DNA of 64,000 nucleotides, taken from a virus. Position numbers and translations under genes: made by a program. The stretch is taken from positions 32,001 through 96,000 of IMG/VR virus record IMGVR_UViG_3300032516_000009, one strand, 5' to 3'. The notes under the pieces are model-generated. The model saw nothing but the letters and a program-made list of their open reading frames with translations. It did no database searches and was not told the origin of the DNA. Every line of letters begins with the position of its first letter. Positions within the stretch are counted from its first letter, which is position 1. Positions 37,970 to 53,104 of the stretch are shown here, one piece after another.

Positions 37970-38104
37970 TGGGGGATTGGGACTCGAACCCAGTGCTTGT
38001 TAGGACCACATATTGCTTCCTTTAATGGGAAGCGAGGAATGGACCTGGGAGCTTGCGCTCCAGCTTGTATGGCTGGCGAGGGAACCACACCCTCTGTATC
38101 CCCC
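37970..38104 (-). ncRNA. oversized tRNA-like RNA G1 (135 nt) with the Y-like module in the variable region
   Basis: Acceptor GGGGGAT/ATCCCCC, D arm, CCAGC-CATACAA-GCTGG, inserted module, T arm TGGG-TTCGAGT-CCCA. Confidence 0.8.
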
Positions 38105-38108
38105 GAAC

Positions 38109-38234
38109 GAGATCAGAGATTGGTTGAACGTTCGAGACGTGGTACTTTTGGTTTTGTGCTCCACATTGAGAGCACAAAGGCTGACTTAGACAGTTAGCTT
38201 GTTAGCACCACAAATTGAACGCCCAACTGATCTC
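38109..38234 (-). ncRNA. Y-RNA-like RNA A
   Basis: GGCGTTC AATTT GTGGTGCT AACAAGC...AGTACCAC GTCTC GAACGTT. Confidence 0.75.
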
Positions 38235-38268
38235 CTACTCCGTGACGTGATCTGTCCGTCGCTTTTCC

Positions 38269-38297
38269 ACTTTACACTTGAAAAACCCAAGTGTCAA
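38269..38297 (-). promoter_or_regulatory. promoter upstream of RNA A/G1
   Basis: TTGACA-17 nt-TAAAGT, the latter preceded by TG. Confidence 0.55.
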
Positions 38298-38308
38298 GTG
38301 TCAAAAAA

Positions 38309-38436
38309 TTTGGTGTCCGAGATGCGGCGCTGGACTTGGTTGCAATACCGGGTTTGAACCGGCGACTTTCTGTACCAAAACAGATGCCCTACCAACTGGG
38401 CGAATTGCGTGTTAGCACCGCTAGTTGGACACCGAA
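38309..38436 (-). ncRNA. Y-RNA-like RNA B with an embedded Pro-like cloverleaf
   Basis: GTGTCC AACTA GCGGTGCT AACAC + D, anticodon and T arms + ACCA + AGCGCCGC ATCTC GGACAC. Confidence 0.8.
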
Positions 38437-38534
38437 AATATTTTACACCGAGACTGGTTTATTACGCAAGGTGTAGCGAAATAGTGGAATCGAATAAATT
38501 CCCAACATTTCGACTTTTAATTCTTGCTACAGGT

Positions 38535-39149
38535 ATGAAAATGATTACTCTAGTATGTACGGGATGTGGGAAAAATTTCCAACGAAGAGAATCGTGTTAC
38601 AAAGCAAACATAGCTCGTGGAAGAATTAAAGTTTACTGTTCGAGAATTTGTCTAGGGGAGTCTCAACGGGTTCCGATAGCTGAGATTGAATGTAAAAACT
38701 GTGGAAAAATAATAGATAGATTAAATAAAGATGTGAACAGGTCTAAAAATCATTTCTGTTCGATATCATGTTCTACAGTATATAACAATAAACATCGTCA
38801 ACATAAATTATATACATGTGCATGCGGTACTAAATTCATTAGACATAATGGAAGTATAAAATGCAACAAATGTATAGAAACATGGAAAAATAGATTGTTA
38901 AAACGAGAAAAATCTAAAGTCGCTAAACGCGATATTACAGGCAGTGCAAGAATAATAGCAAAAAAACATGGGTTACTAAAACAATGTGCAGTTTGCAGTT
39001 ATTCTCTACATGTAGACGCGTGTCATCGTAGATCAATAAATTCATTCCCCGACAATACACTAATTCAAGAAATCAATAATGTAAAAAATCTAATTGGATT
39101 GTGTAAAAATCATCATTGGGAATTTGATCATGGACATCTTACAATTTAG
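38535..39149 (+). CDS. Zn-ribbon-rich HNH endonuclease, paralog of 37346
   Basis: HVDACHR...NLIGLCKNHHWEFD. Confidence 0.8.
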   Translation: MKMITLVCTGCGKNFQRRESCYKANIARGRIKVYCSRICLGESQRVPIAEIECKNCGKIIDRLNKDVNRSKNHFCSISCSTVYNNKHRQHKLYTCACGTKFIRHNGSIKCNKCIETWKNRLLKREKSKVAKRDITGSARIIAKKHGLLKQCAVCSYSLHVDACHRRSINSFPDNTLIQEINNVKNLIGLCKNHHWEFDHGHLTI

Positions 39150-39225
39150 TAGCGGAGGTGAGATTCGAACTCACGATCTCTTGGTTATGAGCCAAGTGGG
39201 AACGACCAGACTTCCCTACCCCGCA
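39150..39225 (-). tRNA. tRNA-Met(CAT), initiator-like
   Basis: Loop CTCATAA, unpaired 1:72. Confidence 0.85.
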
Positions 39226-39230
39226 ATATT

Positions 39231-39346
39231 TGGAATTGAACGTTCGAGGTGCGACGCTTTTGGGAGTCGGTCATCATTGTGTGACCGACTGTATATTCCT
39301 TATGAGGGAATGCGTGTTAGCGCCGCGAATTGAACATCCATTTCCA
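39231..39346 (-). ncRNA. Y-RNA-like RNA C
   Basis: GATGTTC AATTC GCGGCGCT AACACGC...AGCGTCGC ACCTC GAACGTT. Confidence 0.75.
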
Positions 39347-39355
39347 CTTTACATT

Positions 39356-39898
39356 TTAGCACCGATTGTTTACGGTGACAAGAATTGATCGCCAAGGCTG
39401 GGATCGCCATTCCCCAAATATCCCCATCTCTGTTACCAGTTTTATTACCGGTATGAACTGTTTCCAGGCTTCATACGGCATATCATTGCGAACGTAATTA
39501 CACCTAATGCATGCCGGTATAACATTATCTTTCATATGAGCCTTATTATTGTCTATCCTATCTAGTGTTATACGTAAAGATTTGCTTCCGCAGTATGAAC
39601 ACCCGTTCTGAATCAGATCGCGAACGAACTCGCGGTCTAAATCATTACCCTGCCTACCATGTCTCTGATCCGACTGTTTACTATCGTGCACAATAAACGT
39701 ATGCGGATATTTTTGTCGTCTTAGGGACCTATACTCTTTTTCCTGTATGGCAGTCTTATTTTTCTGACATTTATTGCATACTCTAGCTCTATGGCCATTC
39801 CATATACGACCACGTGACCCTGTAGGTCTAAGCCAACTCTTGGGAAACGCAGTAATCTTTTTCTTTAGAAGACATTTAGTACAGACTCTATGATCCAT
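39356..39898 (-). CDS. HNH-type endonuclease
   Basis: CSYCG..TLDRIDNNKAHMKDNVIPACIRCN. Confidence 0.85.
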   Translation of the reverse strand: MDHRVCTKCLLKKKITAFPKSWLRPTGSRGRIWNGHRARVCNKCQKNKTAIQEKEYRSLRRQKYPHTFIVHDSKQSDQRHGRQGNDLDREFVRDLIQNGCSYCGSKSLRITLDRIDNNKAHMKDNVIPACIRCNYVRNDMPYEAWKQFIPVIKLVTEMGIFGEWRSQPWRSILVTVNNRC

Positions 39899-39928
39899 AC
39901 TAACAAGCACTATGAAAGGTTTAGCACA

Positions 39929-39956
39929 TGCTTGTTAGGTCTCCCTGATGGACGCG
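39929..39956 (-). ncRNA. partial Y-like module (5' strand only), followed by an HNH gene
   Basis: GCGTCC ATCAG GGAGACCT AACAAGC; partner strand not found. Confidence 0.45.
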
Positions 39957-39961
39957 AGTAG

Positions 39962-40088
39962 CGGGGTGTTCCGGATTCGAACCGGTGCTTGTGAGGACTA
40001 CCGAGTGCTTCCTTAATAGAAGCGAGGAGCAATCCTGGTTGTTCCCAATTGCAAATAACTGGTGGGCTGCCATTGCCCTGTACACCCC
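39962..40088 (-). ncRNA. oversized tRNA-like RNA G2 (127 nt) with the Y-like module in the variable region
   Basis: Acceptor GGGGTGT/ACACCCC, D arm GGGC/GCCC, module AGGATTGC TCCTC GCTTC...GAAGC ACTCG GTAGTCCT CACAAGC, T arm. Confidence 0.8.
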
Positions 40089-40091
40089 AAA

Positions 40092-40180
40092 ATGTAAACG
40101 TTCGAGACGCGGTGCTTGGTTTCAGCTTCTTTACCTTAGCAGGGTATTGCTTGTTAGCACTGCAATTTGAACGCCTACAT
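40092..40180 (-). ncRNA. Y-RNA-like RNA D
   Basis: GGCGTTC AAATT GCAGTGCT AACAAGC...AGCACCGC GTCTC GAACGTT. Confidence 0.75.
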
Positions 40181-40201
40181 CAAACTTTACATTGAGCCAT
40201 A

Positions 40202-40777
40202 TTAAATGCGAGTGGCCCCGCCCGGGAAGATTTGATATCCGATTTTCTTCCCGTGTTCGATGAAAATCTGAACTGACATGGCCATATATGACGAAACTAT
40301 TGAAATAAATGGCAAATGTTCCCCATTTTCACAGGTAGCAGCCCCGGCATTAGTTTCATCGTCAATTTGGAAGCTTTCGTCCCAAATGGATCGACCGAAT
40401 TGTCCATCGGCAGCCAGCGCGCCATGAAGACATGGAACCTTATTCTGGCGTGCGAAATTTTGCACCAGCCTTCGAGCTTCACCATTATCTAAACAATCAA
40501 CGATAAGATCTGACTGTGAAAGAAGTTGACTATCGTTATTAGCTACGAGTTTGTGAGGAATTACCTGAACCTTCAAACCAAATAGAAATTGCAGTGTCTG
40601 CTGAAGTGCCACCACCTTGGCCTTCCCGACGGAAGATTTGGCGTGGAACTGGGACATTACGTTCTTCTGTTCAATTCTATCAAAGTCAATAACGCGGATG
40701 GACACGCCTAGATTCCGCAGCAAAGGAACCAAATGAGAACCCAGTGCCCCAACACCAACGATCGTTACAATCTTCAT
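40202..40777 (-). CDS. ThiF/E1-like adenylyltransferase
   Basis: IVGVGALGS, IDFDRIEQKN..SQ, VDCLDN.EAR, candidate catalytic Cys in ATCE. Confidence 0.9.
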   Translation of the reverse strand: MKIVTIVGVGALGSHLVPLLRNLGVSIRVIDFDRIEQKNVMSQFHAKSSVGKAKVVALQQTLQFLFGLKVQVIPHKLVANNDSQLLSQSDLIVDCLDNGEARRLVQNFARQNKVPCLHGALAADGQFGRSIWDESFQIDDETNAGAATCENGEHLPFISIVSSYMAMSVQIFIEHGKKIGYQIFPGGATRI

Positions 40778-41010
40778 TTATTCTTCTTGGTCTTTATGCG
40801 TTTACGAACATTAGTCTTTCCGCGCCACCGGCAATTTTGTTCGTGTTTCTTAGCGCTCTTCTCAGCAGATTCCTGGGTGAAGAACTTATAACTGGATCCC
40901 CAATAAGCTTCACATACCCCATCGAAATCTGCTGAGAAGCACCCGTGTCGATTGTCTCGCCCATCACAGCGGTATTCCCAATCACGGGTCTTTTTACGTG
41001 CAGTAGCCAT
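40774..41010 (-). CDS. small basic Cys/His protein
   Basis: GAGG before ATG; stop overlaps the E1 start. Confidence 0.5.
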   Translation of the reverse strand: MATARKKTRDWEYRCDGRDNRHGCFSADFDGVCEAYWGSSYKFFTQESAEKSAKKHEQNCRWRGKTNVRKRIKTKKNK

Positions 41011-41020
41011 GAATTCCTCG

Positions 41021-41389
41021 TTACCCCCGGAGCCGGCGCCGACGTCCGAATGGCGTCTTAGGTCGAAGCATGCAACGTGCGACAGGCACGGCCTCATTCG
41101 CCGGGAACCTATCGACCACGAAATCCGTGAAATCCGCATTCGGATCGGCCGGAATTCCCGGCACGCTCCCAGCACGTACAGCCTCGGTCGCCCAACGCTT
41201 AATGTCTGCGTCACTGGCGTCCCTAGTTACTGGATCGGGCAAATCCCCGTTGGCGCCATTGTAGGTTACGTTGAGTCTGGCCATGTCGGCTTCCATGACC
41301 TCAGCAACCATACTCATGCGCTCTCCAGGCTCCCCAACTAGGTCAACAGCCGCCTCAATCCTATCAACCGCGTCGTTTCGATCTACCAT
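41021..41389 (-). CDS. putative ubiquitin-like (beta-grasp) protein
   Basis: Strong SD; ends with a beta strand then RPKTPFG-RRRRLRG; lies in the E1/JAB operon. Confidence 0.65.
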   Translation of the reverse strand: MVDRNDAVDRIEAAVDLVGEPGERMSMVAEVMEADMARLNVTYNGANGDLPDPVTRDASDADIKRWATEAVRAGSVPGIPADPNADFTDFVVDRFPANEAVPVARCMLRPKTPFGRRRRLRG

Positions 41390-41435
41390 TTGCGTCTCCT
41401 CCTGTTATTTACACCGGAAGTCTTGAAATTTACGA

Positions 41436-41648
41436 CTATCGTGAATGAATATATTCTTTCCACATATCATCCCAATAATCAGCGTATTCTTTTGAACAAT
41501 CTTCGCAGAACCAATATCCCGCACCAACCTCTTCATCAGCATAGGCCGTAAGAGACGGGTGAAACGCTATCTCTTTCGTATCGCCACATCGTTCACATTC
41601 GACTTCCATCACCTCAGTAACTATGGCAATGGCGTCTGTGGCATTCAT
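41436..41648 (-). CDS. small Zn-finger protein
   Basis: CERC, CEDC. Confidence 0.55.
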   Translation of the reverse strand: MNATDAIAIVTEVMEVECERCGDTKEIAFHPSLTAYADEEVGAGYWFCEDCSKEYADYWDDMWKEYIHSR

Positions 41649-42157
41649 GTAACTGGATGCAACTGCTGGATCATTTGTTCCATATATTCAAGCTGATCCT
41701 GCGGCCCAATAACTTCACGCCGCGTATCACCTGCTTTAACTAGGATGATGATTTTATCTGATGCAAGATGATTCAGTAAATCTTGTGATTTATCAAAAGA
41801 GCCCGGAATAACCTCCCTGGCAACCAATGCCTGCCCTCCGGGATAAATAATGGCTCTATCATTTGCCAATGTCACATCAAATACGATCCCCAAGGAGTCA
41901 GGTCGATCCTTATTAGTAAGTAATCCTAATCGCCAAAGACAACTCCATGCTCTGCATCCAGATGGGCGCTTGTTGTAAATAGCGCAGCCATCTTGGCCAA
42001 CGTGCGGACATGATTCGAATGCGGGTTTATTGATTTCTCCAACAGCCTGAGAAAAACAACAAGCCGTACAGGGGCCACAGCAGCGATTCTTCATCGCTTG
42101 CTTGATCGAATGCTGCATCTGTTTTTTAGATGCCCTGCGAGCCGCTCTATTACTCAT
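41645..42157 (-). CDS. CxxCxxCC (YkgJ-like) protein
   Basis: CGPCTACC, CPH, GCAIYNKRPSGCR. Confidence 0.8.
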   Translation of the reverse strand: MSNRAARRASKKQMQHSIKQAMKNRCCGPCTACCFSQAVGEINKPAFESCPHVGQDGCAIYNKRPSGCRAWSCLWRLGLLTNKDRPDSLGIVFDVTLANDRAIIYPGGQALVAREVIPGSFDKSQDLLNHLASDKIIILVKAGDTRREVIGPQDQLEYMEQMIQQLHPVT

Positions 42158-42361
42158 CTAGCTATCCTGTATTGATTCGACGATTGCGACACTACATTCT
42201 CCGATAATGCTATCTTCTAAACCATCACCCGTAACATAAGTTGTGCTGTTATTGTAGCTTACTGGAGGGTTCCCGCGTAAAACTAAGAGATGCCACCCGC
42301 AGCGGCATTCCCATTCGTCATTGGGCCCATTTCTTCCTATCCATTTCCATTTGTGTGACAT
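42158..42361 (-). CDS. small Zn-ribbon protein
   Basis: HKW...WECRCG...EC...IQDS. Confidence 0.6.
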   Translation of the reverse strand: MSHKWKWIGRNGPNDEWECRCGWHLLVLRGNPPVSYNNSTTYVTGDGLEDSIIGECSVAIVESIQDS

Positions 42362-42567
42362 TATTCGTTCTGTATTGATCTAACAATTTTTACATCACAT
42401 TCATCATACATATTTTCAACTGGTTCTCCTATAATCGTTAAATCAATTTCTGGAGATAACCCCGGTCTTGTCATAATGTAACTGCCGCATCTTTTACATG
42501 TCCATTCATCGTACATGGGGGTAGCACCCTTGTGCACTCTGGTTGATTTTTCCCATTCATGTGCCAT
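42361..42567 (-). CDS. small Zn-ribbon protein, paralog
   Basis: HEW...WTCKRCG...ECD...IQNE. Confidence 0.6.
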   Translation of the reverse strand: MAHEWEKSTRVHKGATPMYDEWTCKRCGSYIMTRPGLSPEIDLTIIGEPVENMYDECDVKIVRSIQNE

Positions 42568-42937
42568 ATGAGGCTTTACGTAGATCGTCGACCCAATCTA
42601 AACAATCACTCAATTCCGATTCCAGATTTGATACTTGATAATCACATTTATCCGGTCCTTTCCACATAACTAATGAAACATAATACTGATTGATTATCCA
42701 CCAGTTGAGTCTTCGACCTAAAGCCGCTTCGACTGCGGCAAAAGTCGTAATATCTTCCCAGGAAGGCCCAACAGGCCCGCTACCTGGATGGGAATGAGCA
42801 AATCCATCCAAGGTGTGCCTGAATTTCCAAAATTGATTCCATAATTCAGTACTATCTGGTAGACATGAAGTACTGCGATCCGGTGGTATGTGCCAGTATA
42901 ATGGTTCACCTTTACTAATTATTACACCTGCTTCCAT
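42557..42937 (-). CDS. JAB/MPN+ metallo-isopeptidase
   Basis: N-terminal Glu and HSHPGSGPVGPSWED (HxH...SxxD). Confidence 0.88.
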   Translation of the reverse strand: MEAGVIISKGEPLYWHIPPDRSTSCLPDSTELWNQFWKFRHTLDGFAHSHPGSGPVGPSWEDITTFAAVEAALGRRLNWWIINQYYVSLVMWKGPDKCDYQVSNLESELSDCLDWVDDLRKASYGT

Positions 42938-42993
42938 AACTAAAAATACATGAATGAAATAACCATTTTCGGATTTTAATCATTATTTCAGTT

Positions 42994-43779
42994 ATGAGAA
43001 AATGGCGAGACGATCAATTGATCGAAGCTGTTAAAGCATCCCGTAATATATCAGAAGTAATAACTAGATTATATGATACGGAATGCGGTGGTCATTTTAA
43101 AACAGTTTGGAAATATGTTAACCAATTACAATTAGATGTATCTCATTTTTCTAAGATCCCGGGTCCTACCGGTGTTGAATACCAGCCACAATATACGGAT
43201 TCAATTCTATGTGAAAATAGTTCTATAAGTCATGGTACATTGCGTGCGTATTTATTACGTAATCGGATTATTCCATATACATGTATTCTATGTAATAATG
43301 ACGGATATCATAATGGCAACAGGTTAGTATTACAATTAGACCACATAAATGGCATTAAAAATGATAATAGGACAACGAATCTTAGATTTTTATGCCCAAA
43401 CTGTCATAGTCAAACGAAGACTTTCGGTAGAAAATCGCCAAAACCCTGCCCGAAGGGTCGAATTGGATCACTAAAATCGCCATGCCCACCACGCAGAAAA
43501 TTAGACCATTCAAAAATATTATCATTATATGAACAAGGCATAAGCATGCCAATTATAGCTCATCAATTTGGAGTTAAACACGCCGCTATACGGTACATAT
43601 GTAAAAAATCACATATGTATAAGGGCAGAAATGAACATAGAGACCTAGTTAATTTGCGTAAACAAGCAATCTCCATGGTAAACTCCGGTCACAGTAGACG
43701 CAAAGCAGCAAGTTTACTTGGGGCTTCTAATAATTCAGTGGCTCGATGGATACGTGAACAAAATCACATCACTTCATAG
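42994..43779 (+). CDS. HNH homing endonuclease with HTH domains
   Basis: LQLDHINGIKNDNRTTNLRFLCPNCHSQT. Confidence 0.9.
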   Translation: MRKWRDDQLIEAVKASRNISEVITRLYDTECGGHFKTVWKYVNQLQLDVSHFSKIPGPTGVEYQPQYTDSILCENSSISHGTLRAYLLRNRIIPYTCILCNNDGYHNGNRLVLQLDHINGIKNDNRTTNLRFLCPNCHSQTKTFGRKSPKPCPKGRIGSLKSPCPPRRKLDHSKILSLYEQGISMPIIAHQFGVKHAAIRYICKKSHMYKGRNEHRDLVNLRKQAISMVNSGHSRRKAASLLGASNNSVARWIREQNHITS

Positions 43780-43961
43780 ATTCTACGAGTCACTTGGGGA
43801 ATTGAAGCTTCCCGGAACTTGTAGTCCGTGCGTTCGTCTACGGCCTCGATTTCAAGCATTGACCCGTCGGTGAACTCAATGGAGCCATACTTAATGTCTA
43901 GGTTTACACTCTTGATGGTCTTATTTGCGATCTTCTCCGCAATCTCATAGCTTTTCGTATA

Positions 43962-44939
43962 TTACCAATCCTCGTCTTCATCTCTATCATCGTCCACGTG
44001 TCTGAACACATGAAGTACCCTCTTGTGTTCCGCTTCTCTAATTACACCCGGAAGGGATTCTAGCGTGAAGTACGCATCCCCTCTCTCCCCAGTGTGGTGA
44101 TCAGTTAAACAAATACCAGCTTCAATTATCTGAAGAGTGCGTGCATCACACGTACATTCGAATCGTCTTTGGTTTATCCTGAATGTAACAACCATTTCAC
44201 CACGATTGTATGAACATCGGTGATCTAAGTACTCAGCGCCTCCAATAGCCAGAGCCGCTCGAGCCGCTTCCCCGAAATCGACTTGTGCCATGGTGCGACG
44301 ACCAGCGGCATCACCAAGCTGTTTGACTAATTGCGCTCGCCGTTCTTCCTTTGCTCGCCGTTCTTCCTCTTCTACTCGGCGTCGTTCGGCTTCAGCTCGG
44401 CGTCGTTCGGCTTCAGCACGATACCAAGTCTCCATTCTGAACGCTGCATCGAGTGCTGGCGAAACACCTTGAACATCATTGACAGAATCAGCTCTGTTTT
44501 GATATGCTTCTGCGACTTTCTCTTCCGGTCCTAATGGCATTTCTTGATTTTGGTAGATCAGCGGGCCATCGTCACAAACTCGACCGGCAGCAATACGAAC
44601 AAACCTATCGAGTCCAGGTTCGATCAAATAAACTTGTTCTGAACAACTGATAAGTTGTGTGGGATCCGGGTCAACTCGAACATTATCGAGGACAATCCGA
44701 TCTCCAATTAGATACCCATGAACTACGGACCTTAGGATTTCTGGTATTGCGTCAGCAGTTCCTTTAACCGTAGCTTTGCGAGCGGAAATTTTGAAACTAA
44801 ACCATCCATGCTCGCGGGGTAATGCCCCGTCAATATGCCATACACGATCGATAGATCGGAGAGATCTACTTCCAGTCCAAGGAAGAACTGTAACTTCTTC
44901 GTTAGATTGTAGTAGATCTCTCCAACCCATCACTGTCAC
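43962..44939 (-). CDS. putative E2-like (UBC-fold) domain protein with central coiled coil
   Basis: C-terminal AGICL...FTLESLPGVIRE resembles the UBC GxICL catalytic motif; translationally coupled to the TROVE gene. Confidence 0.5.
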   Translation of the reverse strand: MTVMGWRDLLQSNEEVTVLPWTGSRSLRSIDRVWHIDGALPREHGWFSFKISARKATVKGTADAIPEILRSVVHGYLIGDRIVLDNVRVDPDPTQLISCSEQVYLIEPGLDRFVRIAAGRVCDDGPLIYQNQEMPLGPEEKVAEAYQNRADSVNDVQGVSPALDAAFRMETWYRAEAERRRAEAERRRVEEEERRAKEERRAQLVKQLGDAAGRRTMAQVDFGEAARAALAIGGAEYLDHRCSYNRGEMVVTFRINQRRFECTCDARTLQIIEAGICLTDHHTGERGDAYFTLESLPGVIREAEHKRVLHVFRHVDDDRDEDEDW

Positions 44940-46798
44940 GCAGCAAATGATGGCTTAGCTAGAAGATCCGTTTGTAGGATCGTCTCGACCAAAGATACAC
45001 GGTGAACCGTGCGACTTACAGTGGTCTTCGACTGCCCGACCGGAGTAGACGCTACGAGCGCCCTGATCGTACGCGGAATCGCGTACACATCCTCGAACGT
45101 CTTTTCATCGATCAAGAAGCATGGGATCTTCAGCTGATCTGCCGTGTCCTGAACCGCCCTGTAGTGAGGATTGTTCCTGACTTTGACAAATCCGAATGCC
45201 ATCGGGTTCAGGCCCGACGCATTCACCGCTGCAGTGAATGGCCCCGCTTCCTCATCCCCAATGAACATAAATAGTGTGTCTTCGTTTGGAAGAGGCTGAT
45301 ACTTCATCAAGGCCCTGACGCCAGCGCCGTAATCGGTCCCGCCGCCCGCGGAAATACCACGGAAGGCGTTCTCGACCCCGGCAGCGGAGGGATGCTTCAA
45401 GGGGAGTTCACGTCCTGCCGTATTGAAGACGGAGATGTGAACCTTATCCGGTGGAAACGCCTGGAGAAACTTAGCTACGTGGCTCTTCGCCTGGACAATA
45501 GCATCCTCCATGGACCCGGAAATATCAACCATGAAGTAGACTCGGATTCCCTTCATGACTTCCTCTACCGCCTTTTGAACGGCGGTGTCAGCAGCCTCTT
45601 GAAGTTTTTCCTTCGTCTGCTTGTTCTTCACCCTGGATGCGATATTGGCAGCGCGCATGTCATCTGCAGACTTAACTGCCTTTTCCCAACGGTTCTTGAC
45701 TTCCTGTACCTTCAGTAGGCCAAGCTCTTCAAGTGTTGGCGTTGCGATGATCAAGTCCTTGTCAGACATGGCCCCGGATTCGATGGCCGCTGTGACGATG
45801 GCTCGAGTGAGTCCAACGCTCTTCGGCACCAGTCCGACAATGCGCTTATACCCGGGCTTCTCCTTGATGATTTGTTCGCAGATCTGCATCTCATTAAGAT
45901 CGCCCCAGTTGTCCGCCGCCTTCACCGCTTGTCCGATGGCCATCGTGCGACGACCATCCTTGGCCTGGGACTGCTTCCAGCGCAAAGCTTCAAAGAATTG
46001 CGGCATGATAGGCTTGTAACCTACCCGACGCGCCAATTCCATGACAGTCGTGCGGAATCCCGCCTTCATAAGCCCCCGCATCAGATTCGGATTGGCCTCT
46101 CGGTGTTCCAGCCATTTCGTTACAACCTTTGGCCATCGACCGAGGAACGGATGACGAGCCGACTTGCCGAAACCAAGCTCGCGATTGATCTCGGCCACTT
46201 GAGGCATGGACAAGATATCGTGAATACGCAGAAGTAACTTGGGATTTAGGTCCTTACCGTCACGACGAATGATCAGCGCCATGGCTTCTCCGACGTCTCT
46301 ATAGTCTTCGTCATGAAATGCGACGGTGTCACCATCCTTAACCGGATCGCCCTTACGGCTCTGTACAAGCATCAATGCCGCAAGAACGACTTTGAGATCC
46401 CGATGCTCCTGAGCGAAAGCGTAAGACGCCCATCGAGCGGAGAACTCGTTGTCAAGTCGCCAAACCTCAACGACTTGGCGATACATCCAGGTAACAACTT
46501 CAGGAAAGAGTCCTGCCGGTCGGTAGTCACCGACCTTCCTGCGGTCTTCGGTACGAATAGTATTATCGGCCCAAAGAGTACCAATCTTGACCTTGTTTGT
46601 CTTTCGTCCAACCTTGGTCAGTTGATACACAACCTTTTGACCGTTCTCCTCCTTATGGGTTACGGGAGTCCATTTCACTCCAACAACCGCAGTGGGATCG
46701 GGAACCACGATCCCCGGCCTTCCGTGATATGCATGATCCACATATGACAAAATGGACTGAATAGTGCGCTCGGCTGGTCCTAAATTCTCATTTTGCAC
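44936..46798 (-). CDS. divergent Ro60/TROVE-vWA protein
   Basis: Helical N-domain with TROVE-like FRTTVMELARRVGYKP and DLIIATPTLEELGLL; C-terminal vWA MIDAS VDISGSM, GGGTD, FIGDEE; GTG start after AGGAG. Confidence 0.7.
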   Translation of the reverse strand: MQNENLGPAERTIQSILSYVDHAYHGRPGIVVPDPTAVVGVKWTPVTHKEENGQKVVYQLTKVGRKTNKVKIGTLWADNTIRTEDRRKVGDYRPAGLFPEVVTWMYRQVVEVWRLDNEFSARWASYAFAQEHRDLKVVLAALMLVQSRKGDPVKDGDTVAFHDEDYRDVGEAMALIIRRDGKDLNPKLLLRIHDILSMPQVAEINRELGFGKSARHPFLGRWPKVVTKWLEHREANPNLMRGLMKAGFRTTVMELARRVGYKPIMPQFFEALRWKQSQAKDGRRTMAIGQAVKAADNWGDLNEMQICEQIIKEKPGYKRIVGLVPKSVGLTRAIVTAAIESGAMSDKDLIIATPTLEELGLLKVQEVKNRWEKAVKSADDMRAANIASRVKNKQTKEKLQEAADTAVQKAVEEVMKGIRVYFMVDISGSMEDAIVQAKSHVAKFLQAFPPDKVHISVFNTAGRELPLKHPSAAGVENAFRGISAGGGTDYGAGVRALMKYQPLPNEDTLFMFIGDEEAGPFTAAVNASGLNPMAFGFVKVRNNPHYRAVQDTADQLKIPCFLIDEKTFEDVYAIPRTIRALVASTPVGQSKTTVSRTVHRVSLVETILQTDLLAKPSFAA

Positions 46799-47429
46799 TT
46801 GCTTTCTCCTGTTTTCGTTTGTGTGTACGTATCTTATGACAGTTGGCACATACTACGTCACACTTTTTAATTTCATCAAGTAATTGTCTTAATGATCCTT
46901 TGAATATGAGCGTACTAACCTTAGTTATTTTGGTTGAAGGATCACGATGGTCGAAATCCATGACATATGTTGGGTACGTTTCTTTACAGTCCATGCATGG
47001 CTGTTCTTTAAATGTTTCAACTACATGTTTTAACTTCGCTACCGTTCTAGCCTTTGACAAATATTCACCACGTTTATTTAGATACTCAGCCTTTCTTTTG
47101 GAAGATTGACATTTTCGACATCTAATGCTGCGTCTACCAAGTGACTTTCCATTCCAGCCGAATTCAATTGTGAGTTTCTTACACCCACAGTCACAACATT
47201 TAGTATATTTTGGTTCGATAATGCCAGATTTCACTGCTTCTCGACATTTTTGTCTATAACGTTCTTCCCGAGCCTTAACAACGTTTAAATGTGATGCACG
47301 GTATTCTCTCCTGTAAACAATAGAACATTGTTTACAGCGAGCATGTCTTTCTTGCCTTGCTTTCGATCTCCAATGGAATTCAGATTCCGATTTTAAAATT
47401 TTACATTGGATGCATTGTTTATTAACCAT
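46788..47429 (-). CDS. HNH homing endonuclease
   Basis: PCMDC...MDFDHRDP...KCDVVCANCHKIRT. Confidence 0.88.
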   Translation of the reverse strand: MVNKQCIQCKILKSESEFHWRSKARQERHARCKQCSIVYRREYRASHLNVVKAREERYRQKCREAVKSGIIEPKYTKCCDCGCKKLTIEFGWNGKSLGRRSIRCRKCQSSKRKAEYLNKRGEYLSKARTVAKLKHVVETFKEQPCMDCKETYPTYVMDFDHRDPSTKITKVSTLIFKGSLRQLLDEIKKCDVVCANCHKIRTHKRKQEKASAK

Positions 47430-48154: not shown

Positions 48155-48169
48155 GTTTTTATATCACAG

Positions 48170-48242
48170 CGCTCCCGGCGGGAATCGAACCCGCGCCTCC
48201 AGATTGAGGGTCTGGCCACCTAACCGCTAGTAAGACGGGAGC
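48170..48242 (-). tRNA. tRNA-Glu(CTC), C33
   Basis: Loop CCCTCAA. Confidence 0.88.
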
Positions 48243-49839: not shown

Positions 49840-49857
49840 GTTTCACATTACAATCAG

Positions 49858-50473
49858 TGCCCCTGGCGGGATTCGAACCCGCGAAATTCAGACACCTAAT
49901 TGGATCGAATTCCATACGCAGTATGTTTCCGGTGACAATTTGAACAAATCAATTCACATTTAGAAAGTTCCTTTACAATATTATCCCAACTCTGACGCAT
50001 TAAATTAGTCCAGTCCATTTCCTTTTCTTTTATATGGTGGAAATCATAAATGCATGGGTCATCTACAATATTACAACAGACGCATTTTCCGCCTAGAAAT
50101 GCAACTGCTTTTGCTTTAACTTTTTTCCATCGATTTGCTTGATATTCATCCTGGCAAACTCTACAATACGCACATAAATATGTTCGTTTTGAATTGTAGA
50201 ATCTGAATTCCGTAGCAGGTTTAGTATCTTTACATTTGGCACAATGTTTTGGTTTCATCCCTTCATAATATGGCGCTAATTTAGCCCGAGCCAGACGGAC
50301 TTTATTATTCTGAGCACAAACTCCACCACAAAATTTTCCTCTTGCCGATCTATTACGTTTACGAAGTACTTTTAAATCAAATTCTTGTTTGCATTCGATA
50401 CATATCATACACTACTTTAGTCATAGAAAGACTAAAGATGTCTCAGGTGCTCGAACCTCCGAGCGTCGTGGGC
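49858..50473 (-). pseudogene. tRNA-like gene split by an HNH ORF
   Basis: 5' piece 50473-50437 (GCCC, D arm GCTCG/CGAGC); 3' piece 49896-49858 (T arm GCGGG-TTCGAAT-CCCGC, CAGGGGCA). Confidence 0.55.
49896..50408 (-). CDS. HNH homing endonuclease
   Basis: LGGKCVCC...YDFHH...KCELICSNCHRKH. Confidence 0.88.
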   Translation of the reverse strand: MICIECKQEFDLKVLRKRNRSARGKFCGGVCAQNNKVRLARAKLAPYYEGMKPKHCAKCKDTKPATEFRFYNSKRTYLCAYCRVCQDEYQANRWKKVKAKAVAFLGGKCVCCNIVDDPCIYDFHHIKEKEMDWTNLMRQSWDNIVKELSKCELICSNCHRKHTAYGIRSN

Positions 50474-50479
50474 AAAAAA

Positions 50480-50904: not shown

Positions 50905-50949
50905 TGAATCGCGGAACATTCCGCGATAAACAGCTTTGACTGACGTCGG

Positions 50950-51022
50950 TGCCCCAGGCCGGATTTGAACCGGCGACGCCTACCTCTTCAGGGTAGCGCT
51001 CTACCAACTGAGCTACCGGGGC
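50950..51022 (-). tRNA. tRNA-Phe(GAA)
   Basis: Loop CTGAAGA. Confidence 0.92.
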
Positions 51023-51071
51023 ATATTCGAACTAAATTCGAATATTAGACTTGTTGTAAAATTGGTTCGAT

Positions 51072-51803
51072 ATGGGGTATCGAACTTGGACAGATAAAGA
51101 TCTAGAGTTAGCGGTTAAATCAAGTAAGACCAAATCAGATGTTATTCGTAAACTTGGACTAAAATCCAATAGTTCTGGTAATTTTCAGGTTATCGACATC
51201 CATATTAAACGACTCGGGTTGGATATAGCACATTTTCACGAAGTCGTATTAGGAAAACCTAGCAAACCGAAACAGATTGAGGATTTATTAATTAAAAACA
51301 GTACTTATACAAATACTGGAAAACTCAAGTCTAGATTAATTAGAGCTGGTCTTCTTAGAGAAGAGTGTTATGAATGTAAAACAACCACATGGATGGGTAA
51401 AAAGTTATCTCTACAACTTGATCACATAGACGGTGATCGAAGTAATAATGAATTAAACAATCTTAGACTGTTATGCCCAAACTGTCACTCTCTAACATCA
51501 ACTTATTCCCGTTCCCGTACTAAAATGCAGAATAAACTATCAGAAAATAAGTGTAAATGCGGAGCATTTATTTGTCGGCGTTCCAGCATGTGTATTACTT
51601 GTGATGCTATTTCTAGGAGAGGTAAAAATTTAAAAATTAAATGGCCAAACATGAAAACATTACTAAATATGGTGGAAGAAGCCGGATATGTTCAAACTGG
51701 TGTTAAATTAGGCGTTTCGGATAGAGCCGTAAAAAAACATATTCTCAGAAATAACAAGAACTGCGCACCGAATGGCAGTAGAAAATTGACAGTACCCGAG
51801 TAA
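51072..51803 (+). CDS. HNH homing endonuclease with C-terminal HTH
   Basis: LQLDHIDGDRSNNELNNLRLLCPNCH. Confidence 0.9.
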   Translation: MGYRTWTDKDLELAVKSSKTKSDVIRKLGLKSNSSGNFQVIDIHIKRLGLDIAHFHEVVLGKPSKPKQIEDLLIKNSTYTNTGKLKSRLIRAGLLREECYECKTTTWMGKKLSLQLDHIDGDRSNNELNNLRLLCPNCHSLTSTYSRSRTKMQNKLSENKCKCGAFICRRSSMCITCDAISRRGKNLKIKWPNMKTLLNMVEEAGYVQTGVKLGVSDRAVKKHILRNNKNCAPNGSRKLTVPE

Positions 51804-51945
51804 TGAAGCTGGATCTTTGACAGATTGAATATCTGTTGCCTTACCATTAGGCTATTCCCCCATTGTAGAGTCAGATGACTCGGCGGGGAAAGGGGACTCG
51901 AACCCCCATAGCTTTTGCTTGTGAGCTTCACGTAGTGGGTACTGC
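51789..51945 (-). ncRNA. Y-RNA-like RNA F with a circularly permuted tRNA domain
   Basis: GCAGTACCC ACTAC GTGAAGCT CACAAGC, T arm, acceptor 3' strand, linker hairpin, acceptor 5' strand, D arm, anticodon arm, AGCTTCAT TACTC GGGTACTGT. Confidence 0.82.
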
Positions 51946-51947
51946 GG

Positions 51948-52021
51948 TGCTCCCACCGGGGTACGATCCCGGACCTCCAGCTTGAAGGGCTGGCCACCTA
52001 TCCGTTTAGTTAGATGGGAGC
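51948..52021 (-). tRNA. tRNA-Glu(TTC), C33
   Basis: Loop CCTTCAA. Confidence 0.85.
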
Positions 52022-52339
52022 AAGTTCGTTCCTACGGAACTCGTTACCGTCAATGATACGAACGAATGTTCGTTGAAAATCTTGTTTATTCCATACTATG
52101 ATATCTCCACCACAGCGAACATCAATCAAATTGTCACTAAATTTATCTCCCAAATCGGTTATATCGACTTTAACGCCAACTCTTAAAAACTTAAGAAATC
52201 GAGGATCCTTTTTCGCATCATTGCATTCAGATTGCGTCGGTGGTCGGATACGTACGTAATCGCCTAATTTAATAGAACCTTGCATGAAGGAGTTAATGAC
52301 TTCTTCACCATATCTTGACAGTCTGTCCCAATTTTTCAT
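52010..52339 (-). CDS. hypothetical protein
   Basis: 109-aa ORF. Confidence 0.5.
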   Translation of the reverse strand: MKNWDRLSRYGEEVINSFMQGSIKLGDYVRIRPPTQSECNDAKKDPRFLKFLRVGVKVDITDLGDKFSDNLIDVRCGGDIIVWNKQDFQRTFVRIIDGNEFRRNELAPI

Positions 52340-52380
52340 GAATTACTATACACGTAGAGCTTTGTTTGTACGGTCTAAGT

Positions 52381-52878
52381 ATGTCAGATCAAATTAAGTC
52401 ATGGGGACAATTGCTCAAAGAATGGATGGTAAATTTCTTTGGTGCGCTTTCTAAGAAGCCTAATATCATGCTACTTTACTTGCTTGTAATCGGAGGTTGG
52501 GTGTCAGGTATAAAAACCTGTAACAAGGTCGATGTTGCCTCCGGAAAAGCTGCTGGGGCAGCTCAAGTAGCAGATGAAGCTAAAAAGACAGCAGAGAACA
52601 AGGATTTAGAACAGGCATCTTATGAAGCTTTGGCTAAAACAATTGAAGATTTGCAGACGGAAAATGACGCGGTAAAAGAGCGGTTAGCGTTATTATTAGG
52701 ACATGTCCAGAATATCGCAGCTCAACCGCCAGCAGTTGTTAGAGTGTTTACTCCAACAGGACCCGTGTCAGCTGCGCCACCTATTAAGCCACCGTTAGTT
52801 CCATCTTCAATAATAGATGAACCGGCTCCGCCCCCACCTCCTGCATGGGAGACACTCAAATCTCAGATGAAGAAGTAG
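52381..52878 (+). CDS. membrane-anchored coiled-coil Pro-rich protein (spanin-like architecture)
   Basis: One TM segment, coiled coil, poly-Pro. Confidence 0.5.
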   Translation: MSDQIKSWGQLLKEWMVNFFGALSKKPNIMLLYLLVIGGWVSGIKTCNKVDVASGKAAGAAQVADEAKKTAENKDLEQASYEALAKTIEDLQTENDAVKERLALLLGHVQNIAAQPPAVVRVFTPTGPVSAAPPIKPPLVPSSIIDEPAPPPPPAWETLKSQMKK

Positions 52879-52929
52879 AGCCCGCTGCGACTTACGAAAT
52901 CACTGCTCTACCTGCTGAGCTATGTGGGC
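52879..52929 (-). pseudogene. T-armless tRNA-Thr(CGT)-like sequence (51 nt)
   Basis: D and anticodon arms nearly identical to the tRNA-Thr at 28645, joined directly to GCGGGCT. Confidence 0.65.
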
Positions 52930-52933
52930 AAAA

Positions 52934-53104
52934 GCTGAGTATCCGAGGAGAAGGACGTTGTCTTTACTCAAGACGGATTGAAAGATCCGTTGCCTATTCC
53001 ATTCGGCCACTCCGGCAGATTTAGAGTCTAAAGACTCGGAGCCGGAGGCAGGAGTCGAACCTGCATTTTGTGCGTGTTTGTCCATCGAATCGGATACCGA
53101 TAGC
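52934..53104 (-). ncRNA. Y-RNA-like RNA E with a circularly permuted tRNA domain
   Basis: GTATCC GATTC GATGGAC AAACACGC, T arm, CTCCGGC, linker, GCCGGAG, D, anticodon and variable arms, GTCCTTC TCCTC GGATAC. Confidence 0.82.

What the first reader, a model, noticed from the sequence alone, without database searches (positions are those of the whole stretch)
37970..53104. Covarying RNA module repeated 8.5 times with swappable heads
Each copy has a lower stem, a 5x5 internal loop (purine-led 5-mer opposite NNCUC), a 7-8 bp upper stem, then unpaired (A/C)ACA(A/C)GC. Upper stems differ in sequence but keep pairing: A GTGGTGCT/AGTACCAC, B GCGGTGCT/AGCGCCGC, C GCGGCGCT/AGCGTCGC, D GCAGTGCT/AGCACCGC, F GTGAAGCT/AGCTTCAT, G2 GTAGTCCT/AGGATTGC, E GATGGAC/GTCCTTC. 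Compensatory changes with invariant loop bases indicate a protein-binding handle. It differs from the single bulged-C helix of animal Y RNAs, so it may be a new Y-RNA class.
Basis: seen in the sequence. Interest (0 to 1): 0.9.

Follow-up and report, generated by a model that had tools for sequence, protein, structure and literature searches.

The report
Phage Y-like RNAs with tRNA heads
A giant phage carries eight copies of a conserved RNA "handle" joined to hairpin or tRNA-shaped heads, next to a very divergent Ro60-like gene, which points to an undescribed class of Y-type RNA-protein particles built on tRNA look-alikes.

Summary
The minus strand of the window holds eight full copies and one partial copy of one module: a lower stem closed by C-G, a 5x5 internal loop (A/G-NNNN opposite NNCUC), an 8-bp upper stem, then unpaired MACAMGC. 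Two covariance models built here find about 200 further copies in 50 of 60 related jumbo-phage loci, almost all on the strand of one gene. Base pairing holds in 90-95% of cells and every pair shows compensatory changes. The module comes in two circular permutations. In one, its ends are open and it encloses a hairpin head, a tRNA-like head or a permuted tRNA-like head. In the other it is a capped hairpin in the variable-arm position of a full cloverleaf. No Rfam family matches it.

The gene it accompanies (window 44936-46849, minus strand) has no Pfam TROVE hit. It folds into a helical-repeat domain plus a VWA domain, and its best structural matches are solved Ro60 proteins. The best reading is a new structural class of Y RNA that serves a divergent phage Ro60. 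Binding and expression are untested. One module-bearing contig has no detectable Ro60-like gene. This is a new variant of a known kind. Earlier scan notes on this same genome reached a similar reading; none concerned other DNA.

The parts
37970..38104 (-). G1: tRNA-like RNA (acceptor, D-like arm, anticodon-like arm with loop CAUACAA, GNRA mini-hairpin, T arm). The module sits as a capped hairpin (about 37994-38046) in the variable-arm position.
   Evidence: Sequence read; scan; R2 hit of 53.5 bits; module hairpin in the fold.
38127..38223 (-). A: linear module with a two-hairpin head; the second helix is followed by ACCA.
   Evidence: R1 65.7 bits; the MFE fold equals the proposed structure, z -5.9.
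38312..38433 (-). B: linear module enclosing a standard-order tRNA-like head (6-nt anticodon loop, 5-bp acceptor stem, then ACCA).
   Evidence: ARAGORN calls tRNA-??? at 38338-38410; Rfam tRNA 41.8 bits; R1 50.5 bits; fold.
39239..39338 (-). C: linear module with a two-hairpin head (loop CUCAUAA; a long helix, then CCCA). tRNA-Met 39149-39225 follows directly.
   Evidence: R1 58.4 bits; fold z -5.2.
39893..39957 (-). Partial copy. Its AACAAGC tail is paired with a downstream GCUUGUU. It has no NNCUC strand and overlaps the start of an HNH ORF.
   Evidence: Sequence read; not found by R1 or R2.
39961..40089 (-). G2: full cloverleaf tRNA-like RNA with the module hairpin (about 39986-40036) as its variable arm.
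   Evidence: R2 56 bits; the MFE fold gives acceptor, D, anticodon, module and T arms, z -3.7.
40097..40175 (-). D: linear module with a short head (hairpin loop CUGCUAA, then ACCA). G2 follows 8-9 nt later.
   Evidence: R1 60.2 bits; fold.
51791..51943 (-). F: linear module whose head is a circularly permuted tRNA-Glu(UUC)-like body, in the order T arm, acceptor stem closed by the linker hairpin CCGAGUC-N4-GACUCU, D arm, anticodon arm.
   Evidence: R1 34.6 bits; fold z -5.9; ARAGORN calls Glu(ttc) after in-silico un-permutation; weak YrlA hit of 23.9 bits on the head.
52938..53098 (-). E: same architecture as F. This is the weakest copy: 6 of 8 upper-stem pairs, and the 5' loop strand starts with G.
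   Evidence: R1 18 bits, E 0.43; the MFE fold shows the module and the permuted cloverleaf, z -4.3.
44936..46849 (-). Ro60-like gene (P0001, 637 aa): a small beta subdomain, alpha-helical repeats, and a C-terminal VWA domain with a complete MIDAS motif (D442, S444, S446, T505, D532 invariant).
   Evidence: Pfam finds VWA only; AF2 models; Foldseek PDB top hits are TROVE/Ro60; the N-domain alone has Ro60s as its top three of 48,161 chains; BFVD hits include Ro-like and TROVE phage proteins.
40202..44939 (-). Conserved cassette between the Ro60-like gene and the RNAs: a 325-aa unknown protein (43962-44939), a JAB-like protein (42557-42937, motif HSHx8SxxD), a 122-aa small protein (41021-41389) and a ThiF/E1-like protein (40202-40777).
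   Evidence: tblastn finds these genes in the same order in 53-57 of 60 loci; Pfam and PADLOC results.
38269..40191 (-). Four TGTAAA(G/A)T extended -10-like boxes (38269-38276, 38440-38447, 39346-39353, 40184-40191), each 8-50 nt upstream of A, B, C or D.
   Evidence: 4 of the 7 window matches lie just upstream of a linear copy on the correct strand.

Best explanation
These are genes for a family of small structured RNAs built like Y RNAs, with a constant handle and a variable head.

The handle has a lower helix closed by C-G and an internal loop with invariant A on one strand and CUC on the other. An 8-bp helix of free sequence follows, then single-stranded NACA(A/C)GC and an A/C-rich 3' joiner. 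The two conserved patches sit a fixed 8 bp apart, as expected for a protein docking site. The most likely partner is the divergent Ro60-like ring protein (helical repeats plus VWA) encoded in the same cluster.

The heads are hairpins, tRNA-like bodies, or permuted tRNA-like bodies. In the other permutation the handle itself is the variable arm of a complete cloverleaf.

The RNAs are probably transcribed from their own -10-like boxes or as part of the tRNA array. They would be released by the tRNA-processing enzymes, because they are packed 3-15 nt from tRNA-like neighbours. Permuted heads whose acceptor linker begins with NCCA are probably opened by RNase P and 3' trimming, as shown for Mycobacterium smegmatis YrlA. 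That would leave a two-piece tRNA body held together by the handle.

Inferred function: the tRNA-shaped head presents a tRNA surface to tRNA-binding enzymes (nucleases, repair or processing factors) while the handle tethers the Ro60-like protein. The particle would act as a decoy or as a tRNA quality-control and repair platform for a phage that carries 38 tRNA genes.

Shown here: the module, its conservation and covariation, its two permutations, the three head types, the gene linkage and the Ro60-like fold. Inferred: transcription, processing, binding and function.
For: 1. The module is a real structured RNA.
- R1 gives 100 hits at E<=1 over 1.26 Mb, all on the gene strand.
- In the resulting alignment 95.4% of cells are paired and 15 of 15 pairs show compensatory changes. 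There are 481 double-changed cells against 129+-13 in shuffles, and slid controls pair in 27-44% of cells.
- R2, the hairpin form, gives 113 hits, 111 of them on the gene strand. Pairing is 90% and 14 of 14 pairs are compensatory.
- A and CUC in the loops are invariant in 56 of 56 copies. The loop strands avoid pairing: 3 pairs against 11.3 expected at one position.

2. The module acts as an independent unit.
- The same module occurs with open ends and as a capped hairpin. 99 of 104 distinct hairpin copies are followed by a T arm, and an acceptor-like pairing of at least 6 of 7 bp (mostly 7 of 7) lies about 45-60 nt upstream.

3. It is linked to the Ro60-like gene.
- 50 of 60 loci chosen by that gene hold modules within 10 kb, at a median of 6 kb downstream, just after a conserved five-gene cassette.
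- In five complete genomes of 377-529 kb, 11 of 13 hits lie in the 22-kb locus around the gene.
- In an unbiased IMG/VR pattern scan, 6 of the 7 contigs with properly paired matches carry the gene. The other 15 matching contigs (14 distinct sequences) have unpaired chance matches.

4. The protein resembles Ro60.
- For the full-length model, nine of the ten best Foldseek PDB hits are Ro60/TROVE, at E 7e-8 to 1e-5.
- For the N-domain alone the top three of 48,161 chains are Rsr (Z 9.4), phiLo Ro60 (Z 9.1) and Xenopus Ro (Z 7.2). The next hit scores 6.3.
- BFVD returns 'Ro-like RNA binding protein' and 'TROVE domain' phage proteins.

5. Precedent exists.
- YrlA Y RNAs carry a permuted tRNA-like domain, are encoded beside rsr, and occur in phages. 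M. smegmatis YrlA is cut by RNase P and receives CCA (PMC4201824).
- Thermus phage phiLo Ro60 binds two adjacent Y-like RNAs (PMC12135203).

6. There are signs of transcription units and processing.
- TGTAAA(G/A)T boxes precede A-D.
- Copies in relatives are packed head to tail with tRNA-like RNAs.
- About 10 of 23 permuted heads in relatives have a linker beginning NCCA.
Against: - Binding was not and cannot be tested here, and no expression data were available.
- The protein has no sequence-level link to TROVE. Pfam finds nothing at E<=10, and the family profile against PDB sequences finds only VWA. Ten distant relatives from the 1.84-billion-protein search also lack a Pfam TROVE hit.
- The structural Z-scores (7-9, rmsd 14-18 A) are modest for helical repeats. 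Foldseek on the N-domain alone is not significant.
- The handle lacks the Ro-binding motif known from other Y RNAs (GGUCCGA or GNCGAA on the 5' strand).
- One contig (L075, 109.6 kb, estimated 68% complete) has three good modules inside a tRNA array but no detectable Ro60-like or TROVE gene and none of the cassette genes.
- The Ro60-like gene itself sits inside the tRNA array. Part of the co-location could therefore come from both features belonging to that array.
Confidence: 0.6

Rival explanations
1. The handle is real but docks a different partner. Candidates are the 325-aa protein or the JAB/E1/small-protein cassette next door, or a host enzyme of tRNA metabolism such as RNase P, a CCA-adding enzyme, PNPase or a modification enzyme. 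On this reading the Ro60-like gene is a neighbour only because both live in the tRNA array.
For: The cassette genes are as tightly linked to the RNAs as the Ro60-like gene. L075 has modules in a tRNA array without a detectable Ro60-like gene. The known Ro-binding motif is absent.
Against: None of the cassette proteins shows an RNA-binding family. L075 also lacks the cassette genes. Ro60-type proteins are the one family known to be encoded beside tRNA-like, stem-plus-loop RNAs (PMC4201824, PMC12135203).
Confidence: 0.2
2. The module is chiefly a maturation device for unusual but functional tRNA genes. These would be permuted genes (E, F), genes with a giant variable arm (G1, G2) and leader-trailer clamped genes (B). 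The end products would be decoding tRNAs, for example the tRNA-Glu(UUC) that the array otherwise lacks.
For: E and F carry UUC anticodon loops, and no ordinary Glu(UUC) gene was called in the window. Once the module is removed in silico, 63 of 99 hairpin-form RNAs are called as tRNAs, many with ordinary anticodons such as UCC, UUG, CAU, GUU and GUA. About 10 of 23 permuted heads have linkers starting with NCCA.
Against: Heads A, C and D are not tRNAs. Many tRNA-like heads have defective loops: 6- or 8-nt loops, A33, and A34 anticodons such as AUC, AUU and AAA. Several permuted heads have their acceptor stems sealed by tetraloops. The loop is a symmetric 5x5, not a bulge-helix-bulge splice motif. 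After any processing the handle would remain on the RNA. Relatives have ordinary Glu(UUC) genes as well.
Confidence: 0.12
3. It is a self-cleaving ribozyme, a riboswitch or another cis-acting element whose stems can be permuted.
For: Circular permutation of a conserved core with free stems is typical of small ribozymes.
Against: No Rfam ribozyme or riboswitch family matches at E<=10. The elements are not placed in mRNA leaders. The conserved bases are few and lie in one loop and one tail.
Confidence: 0.04
4. It is a DNA-level repeat, such as a homing-endonuclease target or recombination site, and not an RNA.
For: Many HNH and GIY-YIG genes lie between the copies.
Against: Compensatory changes that include G-U, strict strand bias (211 of 213 model hits on one strand) and free stem sequences are signatures of RNA.
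Confidence: 0.01

Closest known systems
YrlA (Rfam RF02553), the bacterial and mycobacteriophage Y RNA with a tRNA-like domain
   Same: Both are encoded beside a Ro60-type gene. Both have a stem formed by the 5' and 3' ends with an internal loop. In E, F and about 22 relatives the head is a circularly permuted tRNA body in the order T arm, closed acceptor stem, D arm. By precedent, the acceptor loop can be opened by RNase P and CCA added (PMC4201824).
   Different: The YrlA model scores at most 23.9 bits against a 69-bit cut-off, and only on a head. In YrlA the tRNA body is attached through the anticodon-stem position, whereas here it is attached at the variable-arm position and the anticodon arm is kept. 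There is no GNCGAA on the 5' strand. Here the loop is 5x5 with A/CUC and there is an extra ACAAGC tail. Hairpin heads, standard-order tRNA heads and the capped-hairpin permutation also exist.
Metazoan and Deinococcus Y RNAs (RF00019, Yrn1)
   Same: All have a modular design, with a Ro-binding stem and a variable effector-binding part, and several paralogues per genome.
   Different: There is no bulged-C helix and no GGUCCGA/UUGACC sequence, and no Rfam hit. The partner protein is far more divergent.
Thermus phage phiLo Ro60 with Yrl1 and Yrl2 (PMC12135203; PDB 9KOP, 9L5Y)
   Same: A phage-encoded Ro60 with Y-like RNAs encoded next to it. phiLo Ro60 is among the best structural matches of the protein here.
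   Different: phiLo Ro60 is recognisable by sequence, and its RNAs were picked by a CGAA motif and have no tRNA-like body. Here up to 10 RNAs were found per locus, with a different handle.
Permuted tRNA genes of Cyanidioschyzon merolae and archaeal split or intron-bearing tRNAs (from my own knowledge)
   Same: The 3' half lies upstream of the 5' half and the acceptor ends are joined by a linker. The same RNA shape is encoded with its ends at different places.
   Different: Those tRNAs use a bulge-helix-bulge motif that is cut and ligated away. Here the junction is a conserved 5x5 loop between two long helices, and it would stay in the product.
Class II tRNAs (Leu, Ser, Tyr) with long variable arms
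   Same: In G1, G2 and 99 relatives a helix emerges between the anticodon arm and the T arm.
   Different: The arm here is about 55-65 nt with a conserved internal loop and tail, compared with 13-21 nt in class II tRNAs. ARAGORN and the Rfam tRNA model do not call these RNAs until the arm is removed.

Membership tests
Y RNA (Ro60-associated RNA, functional class) | Encoded next to a Ro60/TROVE gene | tested here: met
   A Ro60-like gene lies in the same cluster in the window. 50 of 60 related loci have modules within 10 kb. The caveat is that the protein is Ro60-like by structure only.
Y RNA (Ro60-associated RNA, functional class) | Stem formed by the 5' and 3' ends, carrying an internal loop or bulge, with a variable second module | tested here: met
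   Linear copies A-F and 87 distinct relatives show it. The capped-hairpin form departs from it.
Y RNA (Ro60-associated RNA, functional class) | Conserved Ro-binding sequence (GGUCCGA, or GNCGAAN0-1G / CGAA, on the 5' strand) | tested here: not met
   The consensus here is A-NNNN on the 5' strand and NNCUC|G on the 3' strand. CGAA occurs only as CUCGAA on the 3' strand of A, C and D.
Y RNA (Ro60-associated RNA, functional class) | Physically bound by Ro60 | not testable with these tools
   This needs EMSA or co-purification.
Rfam Y_RNA RF00019 / YrlA RF02553 | Covariance-model score at or above the gathering cut-off | tested here: not met
   There is no Y_RNA hit at E<=10. The best YrlA score is 23.9 bits against a 69-bit cut-off, and it falls on the tRNA-like head of F only.
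YrlA | Permuted tRNA-like domain (T arm, closed acceptor stem, D arm) | tested here: met
   Seen in E and F. In 23 permuted heads, E and F included, 20 are called tRNA after in-silico un-permutation.
YrlA | tRNA-like domain joined to the Ro-binding stem through the anticodon-stem position | tested here: not met
   Here the junction is at the variable-arm position and an anticodon arm is present.
Ro60 / TROVE protein family (for the 637-aa protein) | Match to Pfam TROVE PF05731 | tested here: not met
   No hit at E<=10 on the protein. None in the record or in five complete relatives. Ten distant relatives are also negative.
Ro60 / TROVE protein family (for the 637-aa protein) | Alpha-helical repeat domain followed by a VWA domain with a MIDAS motif | tested here: met
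   Pfam VWA_2 covers residues 437-520. DxSxS, T and D are invariant in 30 homologues. The AF2 models show helical repeats at 116-431 followed by an alpha/beta domain.
Ro60 / TROVE protein family (for the 637-aa protein) | Fold of the helical domain matches solved Ro60 rings | tested here: inconclusive
   The top three of 48,161 chains are Ro60s (Z 9.4, 9.1, 7.2; 234-281 residues aligned). However, the rmsd is 14-18 A, Z is below the level that is safe for helical repeats, and Foldseek on this domain alone gives E 0.099. Full-length Foldseek ranks Ro60 first.
Permuted or spliced tRNA genes using a bulge-helix-bulge motif | Two 3-nt bulges separated by a 4-bp helix at the junction | tested here: not met
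   The junction is a symmetric 5x5 loop between an 8-bp helix and a helix of at least 6 bp. The loop strands avoid pairing.
tRNA (RF00005) | Detected as tRNA with a canonical 7-nt anticodon loop | tested here: inconclusive
   Only head B is called as it stands, and it has a 6-nt loop. G1 and G2 are not called. After the module is removed, 63 of 99 relatives are called. Standard-order heads often have A34 anticodons.

The most novel reading that the evidence does not exclude
Jumbo phages of this group may run a dedicated particle in which a Ro60-like ring is clamped, through a handle in the variable-arm position, onto complete tRNA bodies that can end in CCA. Some of these bodies would be made in two pieces from permuted genes. 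The particle would work together with the adjacent JAB/E1/small-protein conjugation cassette. Its role would be to sense, decoy or repair attacks on tRNAs by host anticodon nucleases. That would be a new arm of the phage-host conflict over tRNA.
Probability: 0.2. Interest if true: 0.85.

Novelty: new variant of a known kind. Interest (0 to 1): 0.7.

Why it matters
Ro60 and its Y RNAs are conserved from bacteria to humans, yet the role of the tRNA-like domain of bacterial Y RNAs is still open. This finding offers a large natural series for that question. It comprises about 200 RNAs in some 50 giant phages, with one constant handle and heads that range from hairpins to complete cloverleaves, in two circular permutations.

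The series makes the rules of handle recognition directly testable, and also the question of what the tRNA shape is for. It reveals a widespread protein family (over 1,600 relatives, mostly labelled hypothetical or VWA) as probable Ro60 homologues that sequence models miss. It also ties that family to phage tRNA arrays and to a ubiquitin-like conjugation cassette.

Tried and rejected
- **Rfam.** Gathering and E-value searches found only tRNAs and weak YrlA matches on tRNA-like parts. There was no Y_RNA, ribozyme or riboswitch hit.
- **GenBank phages.** Megablast of 10 kb against the phage collection found nothing. tblastn of the protein found one uncultured record, Virus Rctr197k, annotated as hypothetical.
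- **Sequence link to TROVE.** phmmer and a family profile against PDB sequences found only weak VWA matches. The N-domain profile against 1.84 billion proteins gave 205 relatives. Ten distant ones scanned with Pfam had no TROVE hit.
- **N-domain structure.** Foldseek with the N-domain alone was not significant. VIA-align on the full model was swamped by the VWA domain.
- **Neighbouring proteins.** PHROGs and PADLOC gave nothing for the Ro60-like, 325-aa, JAB-like and 122-aa proteins. The ESM Atlas gave no usable hit for the 325-aa protein and only weak beta-grasp leads (TM 0.42-0.46) for the 122-aa protein.
- **Sequencing runs.** No RNA holder was listed. The DNA holders are mainly sediment and wetland metagenomes.
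- **Own record.** RtcB and TROVE were sought there and not found, but the record is only 26% complete.
- **Pairing inside the 5x5 loop.** This was tested and rejected.
- **Bulge-helix-bulge reading.** Rejected on geometry.
- **L075.** A search for a Ro60-like gene, TROVE or the cassette genes in its record found nothing. The record is incomplete.
- **Promoter and terminator scans.** The totals were not enriched over shuffles. Only the position of the TGTAAA(G/A)T boxes is informative.

Full report
**Setting.** The window is bases 32001-96000 of a 110,922-bp IMG/VR virus record that CheckV estimates to be 26% complete. Its relatives are complete phage genomes of 377-529 kb with terminal repeats. 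ARAGORN finds 38 tRNA genes in the window, all on the minus strand. Homing-endonuclease genes lie between them. The DNA holders listed are mainly sediment and wetland metagenomes.

- Six are linear copies: A, B, C, D, F and E. Each has a lower stem, a 5-nt strand, an 8-bp upper stem, MACAMGC, a head, the returning upper strand, NNCUC, and the returning lower strand.
- Two are permuted copies: G1 and G2. The order is upper 3' strand, NNCUC, a lower stem capped by a loop, the 5-nt strand, the upper 5' strand, then ACAAGC.
- One is a partial copy near 39930.

D, G1 and E each carry one or two mismatches in the upper stem. MFE folding reproduces the module in A, B, C, D, E, F and G2, and gives the module hairpin in G1. 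Neither the motif scan nor the two covariance models find a further convincing copy in the whole record.

**What the heads are.**
- A, C and D carry small hairpins.
- B encloses a nearly complete tRNA in normal order, with a 6-nt anticodon loop.
- E and F enclose a circularly permuted tRNA body. The order is T arm, a 7-bp acceptor stem closed by a shared linker hairpin, D arm, then an anticodon arm with UUC.
- G1 and G2 have normal acceptor ends, D-like, anticodon-like and T arms. The module sits where the variable arm would be.

E/F and G1/G2 are therefore the same shape encoded with the ends in different places.

**Relatives.** The 637-aa ORF at 44936-46849 (P0001) has more than 1,600 close relatives on contigs of up to 529 kb, labelled hypothetical or VWA. 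I fetched 60 loci around such genes.

- A seed of 12 linear copies gave model R1. It finds 100 matches at E<=1 in 1.26 Mb, and every one lies on the strand of the gene.
- On the 87 distinct sequences, 95.4% of cells pair and all 15 pairs show changes on both sides. There are 481 double-changed cells against 129+-13 in shuffles. Sliding the partner by 1-3 columns drops pairing to 27-44%.
- A second model for the capped-hairpin form, R2, finds 113 matches, 111 of them on the gene strand. Pairing is 90% and all 14 pairs are compensatory.
- The seeds were chosen by a pairing scan and the alignments are fitted to the models, which inflates the pairing percentages somewhat. The strand bias, the slid controls and the variety of pair types do not depend on that choice.

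**Consensus.**
- The lower stem is closed by C-G in 53 of 56 copies.
- The 5' loop strand is A-NNNN, with A in 56 of 56 copies and almost no G.
- The 3' loop strand is NNCUC, with CUC in 56 of 56 copies.
- The upper stem ends in C-U paired with A-G.
- The tail is (U/A/C)ACA(A/C)GCAA.
- The 3' joiner is A/C-rich.
- The loop strands do not covary and avoid pairing, so the 5x5 loop is real.

**Head classes in relatives.**
- About 18 linear copies have short hairpin heads and about 22 have permuted tRNA heads.
- About 40 have standard-order tRNA heads. ARAGORN of these, often with odd anticodons such as AUC, AUU, AAA or UAA.
- Of 104 distinct hairpin-form copies, 99 are followed by a T arm and have an acceptor-like pairing of at least 6 of 7 bp about 45-60 nt upstream.
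- With the module removed in silico, 63 of 99 hairpin-form RNAs are called as tRNAs.
- Of 23 permuted heads, 20 are called as tRNAs after un-permutation. Their acceptor linkers are either tetraloops or begin with NCCA followed by a spacer.

**Linkage to the gene.**
- 50 of 60 loci have at least one module within 10 kb. Five of the ten without one are truncated loci. The median position is 6 kb downstream of the gene start.
- That position lies just past a cassette kept in the same order in 53-57 loci: the Ro60-like gene, a 325-aa protein, a JAB-like protein, a 122-aa protein and a ThiF/E1-like protein.
- In five complete genomes, 11 of 13 R1 hits fall inside the 22-kb locus.
- As a reverse test I scanned IMG/VR with a sequence-only pattern of the hairpin form and obtained 22 contigs. 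Seven have properly paired matches followed by a T loop, and six of those are contigs already known to carry the gene. The other 15 (14 distinct sequences) are unpaired chance matches.
- The seventh contig, L075, holds three good modules inside a 23-tRNA array. Its 109.6-kb record, estimated 68% complete, has no detectable Ro60-like, TROVE or cassette gene. This is the main caveat.

**The protein.**
- Pfam sees only a VWA domain at residues 437-533. The MIDAS residues are invariant.
- An AF2 model from 30 homologues (pLDDT 79.6) shows a small beta subdomain, helical repeats and the VWA domain.
- Nine of its ten best Foldseek PDB matches are Ro60/TROVE structures, at E 7e-8 to 1e-5 over 490-560 columns. 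They include phiLo Ro60 9KOP/9L5Y, human and Xenopus Ro60; Deinococcus Rsr ranks 11th.
- To exclude a VWA-driven result I folded residues 22-432 alone (pLDDT 83) and aligned the model to 48,161 representative chains. The top three are Rsr (Z 9.4, 251 residues), phiLo Ro60 (Z 9.1, 234) and Xenopus Ro (Z 7.2, 281). The next match scores 6.3.
- BFVD gives 'Ro-like RNA binding protein' of Gordonia phage VanLee and a 'TROVE domain' phage protein among the best hits.
- Against this, there is no sequence-level link to TROVE. The Z-scores are modest with large rmsd, and Foldseek on the N-domain alone is not significant.
- I rate it about 80-85% likely to be a very divergent Ro60 homologue.

**Known precedent.**
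- YrlA RNAs are encoded beside rsr in more than 250 bacteria and phages and contain a permuted tRNA-like domain. M. smegmatis YrlA is cut by RNase P and receives CCA (PMC4201824).
- The Rfam YrlA consensus shows that its tRNA body hangs from the anticodon-stem position and that CGAA lies on the 5' strand.
- Thermus phage phiLo Ro60 binds two adjacent Y-like RNAs and host PNPase (PMC12135203).
- A survey of jumbo phages mentions ROT/TROVE proteins in a small subset (PMC7824862).
- None of these sources describes this handle, this attachment point, the capped-hairpin permutation or this protein family. The one GenBank relative is annotated as hypothetical and also has the module after its ThiF-like gene.

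**Transcription and processing (inference).**
- TGTAAA(G/A)T boxes lie 8-50 nt upstream of A, B, C and D. These are 4 of only 7 matches in the window.
- D-G2, A-G1 and C-tRNA-Met are adjacent pairs.
- In relatives, linear copies usually start 3-5 nt after a tRNA-like 3' end and stop 8-15 nt before the next tRNA-like 5' end. This suggests release by RNase P and the 3'-processing enzymes.
- RtcB is present in 4 of 5 complete relatives, and in one of them it lies about 3 kb upstream of the gene.

**Verdict.** The repeated covarying module is real and widespread. It is not a member of any described RNA family. The best explanation is a new structural class of Y RNA for a divergent phage Ro60 (0.6). 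The main rivals are another docking partner (0.2) and a maturation device for unusual functional tRNAs (0.12). It works like the Ro60-YrlA system but fails the sequence-defined membership tests for both YrlA and TROVE, so I class it as a new variant of a known kind.

Noticed in passing
window 40202-46849 (-): A five-gene cassette is conserved in order in 53-57 of 60 related loci. It comprises the Ro60-like gene, a 325-aa coiled-coil protein of no known family, a JAB-like protein (HSHx8SxxD), a 122-aa protein ending in LRG with weak beta-grasp resemblance (TM 0.42-0.46), and a ThiF/E1-like protein that matches the E1 part of CBASS E1-E2 models. A ubiquitin-like conjugation set linked to a Ro60-type gene is unusual.
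   Followed up: partly
window 49855-50475 (-): A tRNA-Arg(UCU)-like gene appears to be interrupted. Its acceptor/D half and its T/acceptor half lie about 550 nt apart. A 6-bp helix joins them and encloses a UCU-loop hairpin and a whole 170-aa HNH ORF (49896-50408). Rfam finds no group I intron.
   Followed up: partly
window 51950-52019 (-): A degenerate tRNA-Glu-like sequence (Rfam tRNA 24.2 bits, below the cut-off; 79% identical to tRNA-Glu(CUC) at 48169-48242) lies directly upstream of copy F. No ordinary tRNA-Glu(UUC) is called in the window.
   Followed up: no
L075:3397-3735 (+), IMGVR_UViG_3300050821_006280: Three good hairpin-form modules (R2 49-53 bits) sit between tRNA-Phe and tRNA-Lys in a 23-tRNA array. 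The contig shows no Ro60-like, TROVE or cassette gene in its 109.6 kb.
   Followed up: partly
window 28727-28734 (-) and 38269-40191 (-): The octamer TGTAAAGT occurs four times in the window, always on the minus strand. Three copies precede module copies A, C and D, and one precedes tRNA-Thr(CGU). It is probably the extended -10 box of this phage's small-RNA promoters.
   Followed up: partly
window 37298-37969 (+) and 38409-39149 (+): Two paralogous plus-strand ORFs (the DNA repeat is 72% identical over 187 nt; one has an HNH_2 domain) are inserted antisense between the RNA genes. Further HNH or GIY-YIG ORFs lie at 35951-36736, 39356-39910, 42994-43779, 46788-47429 and 51072-51803.
   Followed up: no
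G001:C1:123416-124681 (within L002, about 3 kb upstream of the Ro60-like gene): RtcB RNA ligase is encoded in 4 of 5 complete relatives and lies beside the Ro60-like gene in one of them. This recalls the bacterial rsr-yrlA-rtcBA arrangement.
   Followed up: partly
L061 (KX853510.1 175300-195177): In Virus Rctr197k the Ro60-like reading frame is annotated only as a misc_feature, 'similar to conserved hypothetical protein'. It directly follows a 35-tRNA array. A module copy and a tRNA-Met follow its ThiF-like gene, as in the window.
   Followed up: partly
window 37970-38104 and relatives: Many hairpin-form tRNA-like RNAs carry an extra GAGC-(GNRA-like loop)-GCUC mini-hairpin just before the module, and an unusual D arm (ACAGAGG...GGUUCCUC). 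E has a comparable extra hairpin.
   Followed up: no
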